Assembly: GCF_022846255.1 (NCBI RefSeq)
Contig: NZ_AP025682.1
DNA length: 64,000 nucleotides
DNA from: Escherichia coli
Lineage (GTDB): Bacteria > Pseudomonadota > Gammaproteobacteria > Enterobacterales > Enterobacteriaceae
Strand: one strand, 5' to 3'
Translations under genes and position numbers: made by a program
Part shown: positions 60,035-64,000 of the stretch, one piece after another
How the letters are laid out: each line of letters opens with the position of its first letter
Position numbering within the stretch: the first letter of the stretch is position 1
Notes under the pieces: generated by a model
Seen by the model: the letters and a program-made list of their open reading frames with translations, nothing else
Told to the model about the DNA's origin: nothing
Database searches by the model: none

Positions 60035-62230
60035 ATGCTGCGTTGGTCTCCAGTGCTTTTTTCTATTATGTGGGCAAGTGCTTCATGGGCATCAGAAGGA
60101 AAAGTAGAACCAATAAATATCAGTTCTACTAATAGTGCTAATACACTTCCTGATTTAGGTAGTAACGAAAAATCAAACAACAAAGATGAAAAAAGTGCTT
60201 TAGTCGATAAAGCTCAGGGTTATTTTATAAATTCCGCAACGCAAGGTTTTGAAAATCTCACGCCCGAGGACCTGAAGGCTCAGGCTGAAAGCTATGCGAA
60301 AGGGCAGGTGACGTCCACCGCTCAGTCTTATCTTGAGAATGTCTTGTCGCCTTATGGTTCTGTCAGAACCAGCTTATCAGTTGGTGAGGGGGGCGACTTA
60401 GACGGCAGCTCCTTTGACTACTTTGTCCCCTGGTATGATAACCAGGAAACTCTCGTTTTCAGCCAGTTCTCGGCACAACGTAAAGACGACCGAACCATTG
60501 GTAACATTGGGGTTGGCGTACGCCAGAACATTGGTAACTGGTTGCTTGGCGGCAACCTGTTTTATGACTATGACTTTACTCGCGGTCATCGCCGTTTGGG
60601 ACTGGGTAGCGAAGCCTGGACCGATTACCTGAAATTTTCCGGCAACTATTACCATCCGCTTTCTGACTGGAAAGATTCAAAAGACTTCGATTTTTACGAA
60701 GAACGACCAGCGCGTGGCTGGGATGTCAGAGCTGAAGGTTGGCTACCTGCATGGCCACAACTCGGCGCAAAACTTGTCTATGAACAATATTATGGCGATG
60801 AAGTCGCACTTTTTGGTACCGACAATCTGGAAAAAGATCCTCAGGCGTTAACTGTTGGACTGATGTATAACCCTGTTCCGCTATTTACCGTAGGTTCAGA
60901 TTATACATCTGGTACGGGTGATAATGATGATTTAAGTGTCAATGTATCCCTGAACTATCAGATAGGTACGCCACTGAAGGAGCAATTAGATCCTGATAAT
61001 GTCAAAGCCCGGCATTCTTTAATGGGAAGCCGCCACGACTTCGTTGAACGTAATAACTTCATTGTGCTGGAGTATCGCGAAAAAGATCCGCTTGATGTGA
61101 CGCTGTGGCTGAAAGCCGATACCACGAATGAACATCCGGAATGTATTGTGAAAGACACACCAGAGCTGGCCGTGGGTCTGGAAAAATGTAAGTGGACGAT
61201 TAATGCTCTTATTAATAACCACTACAAAATTGTCGCAGCTTCATGGCAGGCGAAGAATAATGCTAACCGCACGTTAGTCATGCCCGTTGTGAAGGCAAAT
61301 GCTCTGACCGAAGGAAATAATAATCGCTGGAATATGGTGTTACCGGCGTGGCAAAGCGCATCCACGAAAGAAGAACAAGAGAAGCTGAATACCTGGCGTG
61401 TACGCCTTGCGCTGGAAGATGAGAAAGGTAACCGTCAAAACTCTGGCGTTGTCGAAATTGTGGTGAAACAGGATCGTAAAATCGAACTGATTGTTAACCA
61501 TATCCTCAGTGTTCCTGTGGAAAATAATCACAACTATCAAGCGGAAGCAAAAGCCGATGGCAGTGATGGTGTTGTTATGGATATGCACATTACTGACAGC
61601 TTTGGTGATAACACTGACAAAAACGGTAATACCCTGCCAGAAACAGGTGTGACGCCTGTACTGTACGACGAGAATGACAAAAAAGTGACGCTTAATACCA
61701 AACCTTGTGCTACTGAAACGCCGTGCGTCTTTATTGCTAAACGCGATAAAGAAAAGGGCACCATTACCTTATCCAGTACGCTGCCGGGGACTTTCCGCTG
61801 GAAAGTGAAAGCAGAGCCGTATAGCGACTCAAACTTTATAGACGTGACTTTTACCAACAGTGCAAATATTGGCGGCATTAATGGTTTTATCTATCGCCTT
61901 GAAGACAGTAGTCCGAAAAATCTCGCAGGTGATGAAAAGCCGATTCCTCTGAAATCAGGTTACCGTTTCGTGATGTGGCGTGATGCTAATAACGATGGCA
62001 TTTATCAGCAGTCGGAAAAACTGACTGAAGAGGAAAAAGCACGTTACGACTATGAGTGGGAATTCACCGGGAAAAGTGCACACGGTGCCACTGGCGCTAA
62101 AGCGAATACGAAAAATGAAGATTTGATCTTGCCAGCCACTAACAGGGAAGCTGCATCGAAATTTGCTGCGGATGAACGTGATGGCGTGCAGGGGTATGGA
62201 ATTCGTGTGGTTTATAGCGAAAAACAATAA
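60035..62230 (+). CDS. sinH: intimin/invasin-family inverse autotransporter adhesin (SinH-like)
   Basis: 731 aa; signal peptide; N-terminal beta-barrel translocator region with strong resemblance to the intimin/invasin beta-domain (ERPARGWDVRAEGWLPAWPQLGAKLVYEQYYGDEVALFGTDNLEKDP...GSRHDFVERNNFIVLEYREK); C-terminal passenger with Ig-like segments. Confidence 0.85.
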   Translation: MLRWSPVLFSIMWASASWASEGKVEPINISSTNSANTLPDLGSNEKSNNKDEKSALVDKAQGYFINSATQGFENLTPEDLKAQAESYAKGQVTSTAQSYLENVLSPYGSVRTSLSVGEGGDLDGSSFDYFVPWYDNQETLVFSQFSAQRKDDRTIGNIGVGVRQNIGNWLLGGNLFYDYDFTRGHRRLGLGSEAWTDYLKFSGNYYHPLSDWKDSKDFDFYEERPARGWDVRAEGWLPAWPQLGAKLVYEQYYGDEVALFGTDNLEKDPQALTVGLMYNPVPLFTVGSDYTSGTGDNDDLSVNVSLNYQIGTPLKEQLDPDNVKARHSLMGSRHDFVERNNFIVLEYREKDPLDVTLWLKADTTNEHPECIVKDTPELAVGLEKCKWTINALINNHYKIVAASWQAKNNANRTLVMPVVKANALTEGNNNRWNMVLPAWQSASTKEEQEKLNTWRVRLALEDEKGNRQNSGVVEIVVKQDRKIELIVNHILSVPVENNHNYQAEAKADGSDGVVMDMHITDSFGDNTDKNGNTLPETGVTPVLYDENDKKVTLNTKPCATETPCVFIAKRDKEKGTITLSSTLPGTFRWKVKAEPYSDSNFIDVTFTNSANIGGINGFIYRLEDSSPKNLAGDEKPIPLKSGYRFVMWRDANNDGIYQQSEKLTEEEKARYDYEWEFTGKSAHGATGAKANTKNEDLILPATNREAASKFAADERDGVQGYGIRVVYSEKQ

Positions 62231-62286
62231 TTTGTGTAGATATGCAGTACGTCTACGACAGAAGGTTAACCAAGGAGAAAGCAGTA

Positions 62287-63222
62287 ATGAAACTGGAAAG
62301 AAATCGTAATTTAAGGAAGATAGTGCTCGCGATGGCTGTTGCGGGCTATTGTGCCATACCTGCTATTGCATCTGCAGCATGGACTTCTGTGACCGAAAAT
62401 ACTGGCAACATTAACGGTACGGTACCGTGGATTCAGGACACTTCCACAACGCCTGTAGATCACCACGTCAGTATCAGCGCAAAACGCGATGGCAAGAAAT
62501 CAACAGAGCAACTGGCTGTTGGCGATGAAGTGACTGTGCTCTGGGGGCTCGCTGATGCGGAAGGCGATACTGATGCCAATAATGAGTTGACCAAAGCAAC
62601 CATTAAATGGCTGCGTAATGGTCAGGAAATCAGTGGCGTAACGGGCGAAACCTATACACTCACCAGTTCGGATGCGGGTAAAAACATTGGTATCAAAATT
62701 ACCCCTACCACAGCGACTGGTATTCCTGTTGTGGGTGCAGAGTTGACGCTGAGAGATATTACCAATGGTCCGGGCGATGATGATGGCAGTGATGGTTCCG
62801 GTTTTGATGATGGTGGTGGTTCCGCGAGCGATGATATCCCAGCCGGTCCGGTTATTGATAACAAAGTGAAAGTTATTATTTACAAAACGGATGACACCAA
62901 CCAGAAAAACCTGTTGGGTACCACAGATGTTCTGGCAACGAACACCTCCTACAGCGTCATCTTGTACTCTGATGCGAACAACAACAACAAAGTTGATACA
63001 GGCGAGGATGTTACCAGCCAGTACGACTACCGTTGGCGCTTCACTGGAACCAGTGCACACAATACTGCGGGTGGTGTGGTTAAAGATACCTGGAACAACA
63101 CTGCACTGGTTATTCCGGCAACCAACACGGCAGCGGGTACTGCATTCAACAGCACCAGCCTTAATCTCGGCACTGACGGTGTGCAGGGCTACGGTTTGTC
63201 CATCGATTATCAAATCAAATAA
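62287..63222 (+). CDS. sinI: SinI-like secreted protein sharing its C-terminal domain with the SinH-like passenger
   Basis: 312 aa from ATG 62287 (AAGGAG Shine-Dalgarno; MKLERNRNLRKIVLAMAVAGYCAIPAIASA signal peptide); acidic Gly/Asp-rich linker; C-terminal ~90 aa alignable to the C-terminus of the upstream 731-aa protein (DYxWxFTGxSAH...PATN...DGVQGYG). Confidence 0.7.
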   Translation: MKLERNRNLRKIVLAMAVAGYCAIPAIASAAWTSVTENTGNINGTVPWIQDTSTTPVDHHVSISAKRDGKKSTEQLAVGDEVTVLWGLADAEGDTDANNELTKATIKWLRNGQEISGVTGETYTLTSSDAGKNIGIKITPTTATGIPVVGAELTLRDITNGPGDDDGSDGSGFDDGGGSASDDIPAGPVIDNKVKVIIYKTDDTNQKNLLGTTDVLATNTSYSVILYSDANNNNKVDTGEDVTSQYDYRWRFTGTSAHNTAGGVVKDTWNNTALVIPATNTAAGTAFNSTSLNLGTDGVQGYGLSIDYQIK

Positions 63223-63310
63223 TCATGACCAATGCCACTTCCTTAGGGGAGTGGTATTACCAGCACACTTTGCTTAATTAACCATTAAGCAAAGTATGTT
63301 GAACCAGAAA

Positions 63311-64000
63311 ATGACTAAAGCGGGATCACTCATGGAAGGGAATTTTAAATTAAAGACCAGTGTCAGCTGCATCTTGTTATCACTGTGTGCTGCTTTTCCT
63401 GCGCTGGCTGATAACTCGGGGAAGTGGCGTAGTGAAGGTACAACCACGGGGCAGTTGAATGGCACGGTACCTACGGCGGAAAGTGCAACAGTGCCAGTGT
63501 ATCAAGGAAGCATTCAACTTGACCCTTCTAGAGCCTACGATGTGCTTTCGACGGCGAAGCCGAAGGAATTCAGTGCTGCTCTCGCGCCGGAAAAATTGAT
63601 CCTGACGAACCCTGAAGATACCGAAGGGGATCTGTTCAGTGTTCCTCCACAATTGAGCTGGCAAAACGACACGTTACCAGTGGTAAGTGTGGTGTGGGCA
63701 AAGGCAGATACACCGGAAACACCATTAACGCAACAGCCTACTGCTGATCTTGCTTTTTGTGCGCAGGGACTTGGCGGACAGCAGTTGGTGGTGTGGTCGA
63801 AAATTGATCCTTCCAGCACAGCGGCCTTATTGTTGCATACGACTACGGGAGTGCCGGATAATGGCCCCGTGTTGTTGGTCGAGAGAAAAGTGTTGCTGAA
63901 AATTGGTGCATCGGTTCAGACGGAGCCGCTCACTGCAGTTACTGACCATTATTCAACCGATTTGAAAGCATCAAAAGTTAAGGTGGGTGAAACCATTACA
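63311..64000 (+). CDS. ratA: 5' part of a large secreted repetitive protein (RatA-like); runs off the window end
   Basis: Open frame of 230 codons with no stop from ATG 63311 (alternative ATG 63332) to the window end; predicted signal peptide ...SVSCILLSLCAAFPALA-DNSG; position after sinI matches the ratA-sinI-sinH arrangement. Confidence 0.6.
   Translation, partial: MTKAGSLMEGNFKLKTSVSCILLSLCAAFPALADNSGKWRSEGTTTGQLNGTVPTAESATVPVYQGSIQLDPSRAYDVLSTAKPKEFSAALAPEKLILTNPEDTEGDLFSVPPQLSWQNDTLPVVSVVWAKADTPETPLTQQPTADLAFCAQGLGGQQLVVWSKIDPSSTAALLLHTTTGVPDNGPVLLVERKVLLKIGASVQTEPLTAVTDHYSTDLKASKVKVGETIT

What the first reader, a model, noticed from the sequence alone, without database searches (positions are those of the whole stretch)
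60035..64000. Non-K-12 accessory module after der: inverse autotransporter adhesin + SinI-like + RatA-like genes
Up to der the window is collinear with the conserved E. coli backbone. After it comes an intimin/invasin-family inverse autotransporter (731 aa), a secreted protein sharing a C-terminal domain with it, and the start of a large RatA-like protein. This is the arrangement of the Salmonella CS54-island genes ratA-sinI-sinH and of the ExPEC sinH locus, inserted next to der. It is the only clearly horizontally acquired protein-coding block in the window and encodes a putative colonisation/adhesion system.
Basis: partly seen in the sequence, partly recalled or inferred. Interest (0 to 1): 0.8.

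Follow-up and report, generated by a model that had tools for sequence, protein, structure and literature searches.

The report
Rare second SinH adhesin gene cluster
After the core gene der this E. coli carries an intact three-gene surface-adhesin cluster of a well-known type (SinH/SinI/RatA), but it is a rare, diverged second copy at a different site from the cluster studied in urinary-tract and bloodstream strains, so the kind is ordinary and the copy is unusual.

Summary
Window 60035-62230 encodes a 731-aa inverse autotransporter that passes NCBI's SinH equivalog model. Positions 62287-63222 encode a SinI-family partner whose C-terminal domain is shared with SinH. Position 63332 starts a RatA-like adhesin that is cut by the window end. 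K-12 lacks the block, and the rest of the window is collinear with K-12.

- This is not the ExPEC 'ila'/Salmonella CS54 locus. That locus lies between yfgJ and xseA and is in about 1,700 of 5,426 complete E. coli genomes.
- The window block lies between der and yfgJ. It is a deep paralog: SinH is 71% identical to the canonical copy, SinI 36-38%, and Rat 35%.
- It is found in only 8 of 5,426 complete genomes (the EPEC E2348/69 type), and there only at 81-87% DNA identity.
- Contigs 100% identical to the window show a 772-aa, not large, Rat protein. It is followed by yfgJ and then the canonical module in tandem.
- sinH1 is under purifying selection (dN/dS about 0.05).

The likely mechanism is a type Ve adhesin, possibly exporting or docking SinI and Rat as in ZirTSU. 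I found a 22-aa N-terminal motif shared by SinI and Rat proteins that fits this idea. This is a known kind with a new member, of modest interest.

The parts
59340..59815 (-). Degenerate relic of an IS4-family insertion sequence that abuts der (der stop at 59320). It marks the left junction of the block.
59816..60034 (+). AT-rich upstream region of sinH1, presumed promoter/regulatory region. No promoter was demonstrated.
   Evidence: GC is 0.31-0.35 in windows 59500-60249. The consensus sigma-70 scan found nothing here, so the promoter assignment is inference only.
60035..62230 (+). sinH1: 731-aa inverse autotransporter (type Ve). Signal peptide about aa 1-19; beta-barrel aa 68-341 (nt 60236-61057); passenger aa 342-731; C-terminal domain shared with SinI aa 618-730 (nt 61886-62224).
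   Evidence: dN/dS is 0.048 against the E2348/69 allele.
62287..63222 (+). sinI1: 311-aa Sec-exported SinI-family protein without a beta-barrel. N-terminal motif aa 30-48 (nt 62374-62430); C-terminal SinH-like domain aa 197-311 (nt 62875-63219).
   Evidence: (NF040711, 286 bits against cut-off 165), (Shine-Dalgarno sequence AAGGAG; this exact 311-aa product is called on 8 contigs; motif).
63332..64000 (+). 5' part (223 codons) of rat1, a short RatA-like DUF823/DUF824 (BIg21/InvE_AD) repeat adhesin. In identical contigs it is 772 aa, which would end near position 65650, outside the window. Signal peptide aa 1-26; shared N-terminal motif aa 29-47 (nt 63416-63472).
   Evidence: searches (E 2.7e-58 to the RatA-like N-terminus; 772 aa, Pfam BIg21 + InvE_AD x2).

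Best explanation
**What it is**
The block is a genuine, intact, horizontally acquired sinH-sinI-rat operon for a type Ve (inverse-autotransporter) adhesion system. It is the rare der-proximal paralog, which I call 'module 1'. It is not the canonical ExPEC 'ila'/Salmonella CS54 module ('module 2'), which lies between yfgJ and xseA.

**Wider locus (inferred from contigs identical to the window)**
The source genome most likely reads der - IS4 relic - sinH1 - sinI1 - rat1 (772 aa) - yfgJ - sinH2 - sinI2 - rat2 (about 2,690 aa) - xseA. That places two diverged modules in tandem. They could have been joined by recombination in the conserved 3' half of yfgJ.

**How it probably works**
- All three proteins are exported by Sec (inferred from their N-termini).
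- SinH1 inserts its 12-stranded beta-barrel into the outer membrane. This rests on homology to the invasin and intimin barrels.
- SinH1 either displays its roughly 390-aa Ig-like passenger as an adhesin, or uses it as a platform or translocator for the barrel-less SinI1 and Rat1. The second option is the published ZirT/ZirS/ZirU analogy. It is inference and was not tested.
- SinI and Rat proteins share a conserved motif of about 22 aa at the mature N-terminus (G-x-W-Q-x5-T-G-x-I-[NQ]-G-T-x-P). I propose it is the element that directs both proteins to SinH. This is a hypothesis.
For: **Family membership**
- SinH equivalog: 1400 bits against a cut-off of 999, full length. SinI subfamily: 286 against 165. 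Rat N-terminus: E 2.7e-58.
- Pfam IAT_beta E 4.5e-108. Solved invasin and intimin barrels E 5e-70 and 5e-66.

**Paralogy and position**
- Window 50035-64000 is 100% identical to a Logan contig that continues with the 772-aa rat1, yfgJ, a 724-aa SinH, a 330-aa SinI and a 2,693-aa Rat.
- At least eight independent assemblies show the same tandem.
- Module 1 against module 2 in the same genome: SinH 71%, SinI 36-38%, Rat 35%.
- In a neighbour-joining tree SinH1 forms its own deep clade, 66-71% identical to every other SinH, including Salmonella at 70%.
- Salmonella, Escherichia spp., Citrobacter, Superficieibacter and Pseudocitrobacter all have der-yfgJ-sinH-sinI-rat-xseA.

**Rarity**
- Module 2 is in 1,709 of 5,426 complete genomes, a count that includes 8 weak cross-hits.
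- Module 1 is in 8 of 5,426, none above 90% identity. The four of these loci I opened carry module 1 alone; the other four are resequenced E2348/69 records and a sister strain that I did not open.
- SinI1-type proteins at 83% identity or more form only three clusters, all E. coli. The next best hit is 49%.

**Function retained**
- sinH1 dN/dS is 0.048 with dS 0.57. The neighbouring der has dS 0.029.

**Recombination in yfgJ**
- The 5' 120 nt of yfgJ match only module-1 haplotypes, while the 3' 105 nt are conserved in all.
- L011 and L012 are identical through module 1 and the first 120 nt of yfgJ. They are 96% identical in its last 105 nt and 78% in the spacer before sinH2.

**Shared N-terminal motif**
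- hhalign probability 95%, E 4e-8.
- A SinI-derived HMM scores all 16 Rat N-termini at 14-24 bits, against 7 bits or less for 2,000 shuffles.
- Motif residues are among the few invariant SinI columns.

**Literature**
- sinH and sinI are co-transcribed, and SinH is surface-exposed and a protective antigen (PMC12525524, PMC9937491).
- The translocator hypothesis for SinI and Rat-like proteins comes from PMC4943183 and PMC6714894.
- ZirS secretion depends on ZirT (PMC2270342).
Against: - The tandem arrangement lies outside the window. It is inferred from identical contigs, not seen in the window itself.
- There are no expression data, and no consensus promoter was found upstream. The AT-rich leader suggests H-NS silencing, as reported for other E. 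coli inverse autotransporters.
- IatB (the SinH2 type) mediates biofilm formation without the downstream gene (PMC6714894). SinH can therefore act alone, and the translocator role is unproven.
- The solved barrels are plugged by the passenger linker, which argues against repeated substrate export (discussed in PMC4943183).
- The shared motif could reflect common ancestry or gene conversion between the sinI and rat 5' ends, rather than a targeting function.
- The structural evidence is weak. The SinH1 model was unusable (pLDDT 39). SinI gave only generic Ig-like matches.
Confidence: 0.8

Rival explanations
1. One reading: the block is the ortholog of the ExPEC sinH ('ila') locus and the Salmonella CS54 sinH-sinI-ratA segment, simply inserted next to der.
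For: The gene order is the same and the same NCBIfam families match. The proteins are annotated 'SinH' and 'SinI family' in RefSeq.
Against: - The canonical locus lies between yfgJ and xseA in Salmonella, ExPEC and other genera.
- The window block lies on the other side of yfgJ and co-exists with the canonical locus in identical contigs.
- Identity to the canonical proteins is 71%, 36-38% and 35%.
- Megablast against 5,426 genomes finds it in only 8.
Confidence: 0.07
2. SinH1 is a self-contained adhesin that displays its own passenger. SinI1 and Rat1 are independently handled periplasmic or secreted proteins, and the shared N-terminal motif is a leftover of common ancestry or gene conversion.
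For: - IatB promotes biofilm formation without its downstream gene (PMC6714894).
- Anti-SinH antibodies protect, so the passenger is surface-exposed (PMC9937491).
- The barrel lumen is occupied by the linker in the solved structures (discussed in PMC4943183).
- Within-locus similarity of the two motifs is what gene conversion would also produce.
Against: - Barrel-less, Sec-exported Ig-repeat proteins need some route to the surface.
- sinI and rat are kept next to sinH in every locus and genus examined.
- The motif is among the most conserved parts of otherwise fast-evolving proteins.
- ZirS secretion strictly requires ZirT (PMC2270342).
Confidence: 0.3
3. The block is a silent, decaying relic with no present function.
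For: - An IS4 relic sits at the junction.
- The leader is AT-rich and has no consensus promoter.
- In several tandem genomes one of the two sinH copies (sinH2) is split or not called (L010, L013, L014, L015), as expected for redundant copies.
Against: - In the window both complete ORFs (sinH1 and sinI1) are intact, and the 223 rat1 codons present are open.
- SinH1 matches the full profile.
- dN/dS is 0.048 for sinH1 and 0.19 for sinI1, over dS 0.36-0.57.
- There is a strong Shine-Dalgarno sequence before sinI1.
- The allele is 100% conserved across independent isolates.
Confidence: 0.12

Closest known systems
ExPEC 'ila' locus (sinH-sinI-ratA; SinH = IatB), between yfgJ and xseA
   Same: Same three gene families in the same order and the same chromosomal neighbourhood (the der-xseA interval). 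SinH passes the same NCBIfam equivalog model.
   Different: - It lies on the opposite side of yfgJ.
- Protein identity is 71% (SinH), 36-38% (SinI) and 35% (Rat).
- Rat is 772 aa rather than about 2,690 aa.
- It co-resides with the ila module in identical contigs.
- It is in 8 rather than about 1,700 of 5,426 complete genomes.
EPEC O127:H6 E2348/69 sinH-sinI-adhesin cluster (E2348C_RS14930-14920)
   Same: Same position (der side of yfgJ), same IS4 relic and same three genes. SinH is 94% identical and SinI 84-88%. This is the true ortholog of the window block.
   Different: - DNA identity is only 81-87% and sinH dS is 0.57.
- Rat1 is only 47-50% identical.
- E2348/69 has no module 2.
- E2348/69 carries an extra integrase island upstream.
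Salmonella CS54 island (sinH, sinI, ratA, ratB, shdA)
   Same: sinH-sinI-ratA order. SinH is 70% identical and SinI 45-47%. The N-terminal motif is present in Salmonella SinI, RatA and RatB.
   Different: The Salmonella island lies between yfgJ and xseA and carries a second rat gene, ratB (seen); that it also includes shdA is from my own knowledge of Kingsley et al. 2003, not checked here. The window block has one short rat gene and lies between der and yfgJ.
Salmonella ZirT/ZirS/ZirU
   Same: An inverse-autotransporter barrel protein is followed by barrel-less, Sec-exported Ig-like proteins related to its passenger. ZirS secretion depends on ZirT (PMC2270342). SinI1 weakly matches the ZirU family (38 bits, E 1.8e-9).
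   Different: It is below the ZirU cut-off of 100 bits, so it is not a member. No secretion data exist for SinI or Rat. I could not check whether the N-terminal motif occurs in ZirS or ZirU.

Membership tests
Inverse autotransporter (type Ve, intimin/invasin family) | [quoted passage not shown] | tested here: met
   Pfam IAT_beta covers residues 68-341, E 4.5e-108. PDB 4e1t invasin E 5e-70 and 4e1s intimin E 5e-66.
Inverse autotransporter (type Ve, intimin/invasin family) | Sec signal peptide, and a passenger that lies C-terminal to the barrel | tested here: met
   By inspection the N-terminus reads MLRWSPVLFSIMWASASWA|SEGK, followed by about 390 aa after the barrel. No signal-peptide predictor was available.
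Inverse autotransporter (type Ve, intimin/invasin family) | Passenger built of Ig-like (Big) domains | tested here: inconclusive
   No Pfam Big domain was hit. The AlphaFold model was unusable (pLDDT 39). The literature predicts three Ig-like domains for SinH (PMC9937491, PMC12525524).
SinH (NCBIfam NF033423 equivalog) | Full-length score above the curated cut-off | tested here: met
   1400 bits against a cut-off of 999, covering residues 1-730 of 730 profile positions.
Canonical ExPEC ila / Salmonella CS54 sinH locus (orthology) | Located between yfgJ and xseA | tested here: not met
   The window block starts about 20 bp after der. In identical contigs yfgJ follows rat1. The canonical position was seen.
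Canonical ExPEC ila / Salmonella CS54 sinH locus (orthology) | Sequence clusters with E. coli SinH/IatB alleles (84-97% identical among themselves) | tested here: not met
   SinH1 is 66-71% identical to all other SinH proteins and forms a separate deep clade.
SinI family (NF040711) | Score above the cut-off, no beta-barrel, and a C-terminal domain homologous to the SinH C-terminus | tested here: met
   286 bits against a cut-off of 165. No IAT_beta hit. 36% identity over 119 aa to SinH residues 618-730, E 9e-19.
RatA/RatB DUF823/DUF824 repeat adhesins (NF011843, NF011842, NF011844) | Homologous N-terminal region and BIg21/InvE_AD repeats | tested here: met
   The window part gives E 2.7e-58. 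The full 772-aa protein from the identical contig gives E 2e-154 and Pfam BIg21 + InvE_AD x2.
RatA/RatB DUF823/DUF824 repeat adhesins (NF011843, NF011842, NF011844) | Equivalog score and full length (1,860-2,683 aa) | tested here: not met
   516 bits against a cut-off of 3,870, and 772 aa. It is a short relative, not an equivalog.
ZirTSU-type partner secretion through an inverse autotransporter | Export of the downstream barrel-less proteins depends on the barrel protein | not testable with these tools
   Only the gene organisation and the weak ZirU similarity (38 bits against a cut-off of 100) could be checked.
Horizontally acquired genomic island | Absent from related genomes at this site, deviant composition, and a mobility relic at the junction | tested here: met
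   Absent from K-12 and from 5,418 of 5,426 complete genomes. GC is 37-49% against 53%. An IS4 relic sits at the left junction. No integrase or tRNA is present.

The most novel reading that the evidence does not exclude
SinI-family and RatA-family proteins carry a conserved 'address tag' of about 22 aa at the mature N-terminus (G-x-W-Q-x5-T-G-x-I-[NQ]-G-T-x-P). This tag would direct them to their cognate SinH barrel or passenger for export or surface docking, making it the missing counterpart of a TPS domain for inverse-autotransporter partner secretion. Genomes like this one would then run two diverged, possibly orthogonal SinH systems side by side, each with its own tag variant.
Probability: 0.25. 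Interest if true: 0.6.

Novelty: new member of a known kind. Interest (0 to 1): 0.3.

Why it matters
- **Vaccine coverage.** SinH is being developed as an ExPEC vaccine antigen, in particular its third domain. The paralog described here is only 56-65% identical to the co-resident canonical copy (SinH2) across its last ~130 residues (601-731), roughly where the third domain used as antigen lies. It is the only SinH in the EPEC E2348/69 lineage. Surveys that count 'sinH-positive' strains by BLAST may therefore pool or miss two different antigens.
- **Locus evolution.** The der-yfgJ-xseA interval is a two-slot hotspot for this adhesin system, and modules are reshuffled by recombination inside yfgJ.
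- **Mechanism.** The shared N-terminal motif gives a concrete, mutable handle for testing the long-standing but untested idea that SinH-type inverse autotransporters export or anchor their co-encoded partner proteins.

Tried and rejected
- **Exact look-up of the 326-aa ORF (62242 start).** It found nothing. The real start is 62287, and the resulting 311-aa product is on record.
- **AlphaFold2 of full-length SinH1 with a 15-sequence alignment.** Mean pLDDT was 39, so the model was unusable and no fold search was run on it.
- **Pfam on SinI1.** Nothing significant.
- **Rfam on 59000-64000.** No family matched.
- **Promoter scan.** It found fewer sites than expected by chance and none upstream of sinH1.
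- **The 57-aa ORF (59582-59755) that gene callers report inside the IS relic.** It has no family hit and I treat it as spurious.
- **The genome-contig scan.** It used very narrow peptide patterns and returned only 11 loci, missing Salmonella. Salmonella context was recovered through the look-up of encoding contigs instead.
- **Within-locus co-variation of the SinI and Rat motifs.** It exceeded permutations (52 of 20,000), but the loci are phylogenetically non-independent, so I treat it only as a hint.
- **The idea that the block is an allelic form of the canonical island with yfgJ moved.** Rejected because both modules co-occur around a single yfgJ.

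
Full report
**1. Observation**

The + strand of 60035-64000 carries three consecutive reading frames.

- **60035-62230, 731 aa.**
  - Pfam IAT_beta covers residues 68-341 (E 4.5e-108).
  - It matches the solved invasin and intimin beta-domains 4e1t and 4e1s (E 5e-70 and 5e-66).
  - It scores 1400 bits over the whole length of NCBIfam's SinH equivalog model, against a cut-off of 999.
- **Second frame.** The ORF opens at 62242, but the ATG at 62287 is preceded by AAGGAG. 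The 311-aa product from 62287 is the one on record in public assemblies, while the 326-aa version is not.
  - It passes the SinI family model (286 bits against 165).
  - Its last ~115 residues are 36% identical to SinH residues 618-730 (E 9e-19).
- **Third frame.** It starts at 63332 (alternative ATG at 63296), runs off the window, and matches the N-termini of the RatA-like, RatA and RatB models (E 2.7e-58 to 1.6e-51).

Composition shifts across the junction. GC is 53% in the backbone, 37.5% in the der-sinH spacer, 45.3% in sinH and 48.6% in sinI. Window 1-59320 is collinear with K-12 mltF-der at 95-98.5% identity, with no other insertion. K-12 reads der-yfgJ-xseA. The observation, and the claim that this is the only accessory block in the window, are confirmed.

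**2. What lies beyond the window**

Window 50035-64000 is 100% identical over 13,966 bases to a Logan contig, L011. That contig continues with:
- the rest of the third gene, which is only 772 aa (Pfam BIg21 + InvE_AD x2);
- yfgJ (74 aa);
- a second inverse autotransporter (724 aa);
- a second SinI-like gene (330 aa);
- a 2,693-aa Rat-like gene.

The same order appears in at least eight independent assemblies that carry the identical SinH or SinI, including a 3.1-Mb contig. The window therefore holds 'module 1' of a tandem pair, and the 'large RatA-like protein' belongs to module 2, outside the window. That the window's own genome has this arrangement is inference from sequence identity.

**3. 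Module 1 is not the canonical sinH locus**

The arrangement is der-yfgJ-sinH-sinI-rat-xseA in all of the following:
- E. coli FEX669, which is 100% identical to the window in bamB-der;
- Salmonella enterica;
- Escherichia sp. E1V33, E. whittamii, two Citrobacter, Superficieibacter, three Pseudocitrobacter and another E. coli.

The ExPEC/APEC 'ila' cluster is likewise delimited xseA..yfgJ in the literature (PMC12928451). Module 1 sits on the other side of yfgJ.

Within one genome the two modules are deeply diverged: SinH 71%, SinI 36-38% and Rat 35% identical. In a neighbour-joining tree SinH1 forms its own clade, 66-71% identical to every other SinH, including Salmonella at 70%. By comparison, the SinH2 alleles of E. 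coli, other Escherichia species and Pseudocitrobacter are 81-97% identical to one another. SinI1-type proteins at 83% identity or more form only three clusters, all from E. coli. The next best hit in 5.8 billion proteins is 49%. No donor species was found.

**4. Distribution**

| Feature | Complete E. coli genomes (of 5,426) | Source |
|---|---|---|
| Module 2 DNA | 1,709, of which 8 are weak cross-hits from module 1 | |
| Module 1 | 8, at 81-87% identity, none above 90% | |
| Tandem of both modules | 0 found | |

The 8 module-1 genomes are four E2348/69 records, two Korean clinical isolates, a monkey isolate and a pig isolate. The four module-1 loci I opened have module 1 alone followed by yfgJ-xseA; the other four, which I did not open, are resequenced E2348/69 records and a sister isolate. 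No complete genome was therefore seen to have the tandem.

The 90%-identity cluster of SinH1 has 135 members, named from EPEC strains such as DEC2B, DEC2D, RN587/1 and E2348/69. The window's exact proteins are already in NCBI and RefSeq, annotated as SinH, SinI family and DUF823 adhesin. The genes are therefore annotated. In the searchable literature I found no description of two paralogous modules flanking yfgJ. Only two papers mention both sinH and yfgJ, and neither does this.

**5. Junctions and history**

- Homology to K-12 and FEX669 ends about 15 bp after the der stop.
- Yet the two module-1 alleles differ by dS 0.57 in sinH, against 0.029 in the adjacent der. Their Rat proteins are only 47-50% identical.
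- The locus therefore carries old, strongly diverged haplotypes.
- yfgJ itself is hypervariable (62-87% amino-acid identity among E. coli). Its 5' 120 nt match only module-1 haplotypes, while its 3' 105 nt are conserved everywhere.
- L011 and L012 are identical through module 1 and the first 120 nt of yfgJ. They are 96% identical in its last 105 nt and 78% in the spacer before sinH2, and they carry different module-2 alleles.

This fits recombination in the conserved 3' half of yfgJ as the way the two modules are combined and reassorted. That conclusion is inference.

**6. Is it functional?**

- In the window sinH1 and sinI1 are intact, and rat1 is open over the 223 codons the window contains (it is intact at 772 aa in the identical contig L011).
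- sinH1 shows dN/dS 0.048 and sinI1 0.19 against the E2348/69 alleles.
- Against this, no consensus promoter was found in the AT-rich leader.
- In several tandem genomes sinH2 is split or not called, as expected if the two copies are partly redundant.

I rate a silent relic as unlikely, at about 0.12.

**7. Mechanism**

*Shown by homology.* SinH1 has an intimin/invasin-type barrel placed N-terminal to a roughly 390-aa passenger. This is the type Ve topology.

*From the literature.*
- ExPEC SinH is surface-exposed, is a protective antigen, and is associated with adhesion, invasion and UTI or bacteraemia (PMC9937491, PMC12525524).
- sinH and sinI are co-transcribed (PMC12525524).
- IatB (the SinH ortholog) promotes biofilm formation on its own (PMC6714894).
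- Heinz et al. (PMC4943183) and Goh et al. (PMC6714894) proposed that SinH exports SinI and Rat-like proteins. They argued by analogy with ZirT, which is required for ZirS secretion (PMC2270342).
- The ZirTS authors noted that no TPS-like recognition domain was evident.

*Found here.* SinI and Rat proteins share a motif of about 22 aa immediately after the signal peptide.
- SinI1 reads AAWTSVTENTGNINGTVPW. Rat1 reads GKWRSEGTTTGQLNGTVP. In both proteins W is at position 32 and GTVP at positions 44-47.
- hhalign on signal-peptide-stripped N-termini gives probability 95% and E 4e-8.
- An HMM built from SinI alone scores all 16 Rat N-termini, including Salmonella RatA and RatB, at 14-24 bits, against 7 bits or less for 2,000 shuffles.
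- Motif residues are among the few invariant SinI columns.
- The motif is predicted with pLDDT 90 amid disordered flanks.
- SinI and Rat motifs are more alike within a locus than between loci, but the loci are not independent.

I propose the motif as the element that directs both barrel-less proteins to SinH. This is a hypothesis. Common ancestry or gene conversion is the alternative.

**8. Structure attempts**

These added little. The SinH1 model failed (pLDDT 39). SinI1 gave only generic Ig-like matches. This agrees with the literature's 'IgSF' description but gives no specific functional relative.

**9. Verdict**

The block is real, horizontally acquired and correctly assigned to the SinH/SinI/RatA kind.

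- Novelty: a new (rare, diverged, differently sited) member of a known kind. It is already annotated in databases but not, as far as I could find, described as a paralogous second module.
- Practical relevance: SinH vaccine coverage and sinH prevalence surveys. SinH1 is only 56-65% identical to SinH2 over residues 601-731.
- Overall interest is modest, at 0.3. The most novel surviving reading is the N-terminal address tag together with two orthogonal systems. I give it about 0.25 probability.

Noticed in passing
L011:15743-15967 (yfgJ, just beyond the window end); also L001, L002, L003, L016: The small zinc-ribbon gene yfgJ is hypervariable among E. coli (62-87% amino-acid identity; K-12 against FEX669 is 65%). 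Its N-terminal half is variable and its C-terminal half is conserved. yfgJ alleles co-vary with the adhesin module next to them, and a recombination breakpoint between two tandem-carrying genomes falls inside yfgJ.
   Followed up: partly
L016:12690-14051, L017-L027 (xseA next to the island): XseA is only 88-94% identical to K-12 XseA in genomes that carry either module, including E. coli E2348/69 at 87.9%. The next gene, guaB, is 99.8% identical. The divergent haplotype therefore extends into the core gene xseA.
   Followed up: no
[not shown]
   Followed up: no
window 62287-62370 (SinI1 signal peptide); alignment A2: The SinI signal peptide is unusually conserved across genera (LALxxAGYC, with A19 and C22 invariant and G20, Y21 in at least 90% of 45 sequences), although the mature protein is only 36-55% identical. 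The Cys is not in a canonical lipobox, because Tyr occupies position -1.
   Followed up: no
L023:10407-11396 against L011:18397-19389: SinI2 of the window-type E. coli genome is 96% identical to the SinI of Pseudocitrobacter vendiensis, but only 67% identical to the SinI2 of E. coli FEX669. This hints at recent exchange of module-2 alleles between genera.
   Followed up: no
L016:1-6000 (E2348/69): E2348/69 carries an extra segment of about 6 kb or more, ahead of the IS4 relic and sinH1. Its genes include a tyrosine recombinase, a pentapeptide-repeat protein, a nucleotidyltransferase and an HTH regulator. This segment is absent from the window.
   Followed up: no
L022 (JAIJJM010000381.1, MAG labelled Collinsella sp.): A 3.1-kb contig binned into an actinobacterial Collinsella MAG encodes an E. 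coli-type SinI2 and a Rat2 N-terminus that is 98% identical to FEX669. This is almost certainly a mis-binned E. coli contig.
   Followed up: no
window 59321-59345 against K-12 L003:7816-7884 and FEX669 L001:14770-14831: In K-12 and FEX669 a GC-rich hairpin that looks like a terminator follows der and precedes yfgJ. In the window that hairpin is replaced by the end of the IS4 relic, so der has lost its usual downstream terminator sequence.
   Followed up: no
window 59582-59755 (+): Gene callers repeatedly report a 57-aa ORF inside the IS4 relic. It has no NCBIfam hit and is probably spurious.
   Followed up: partly
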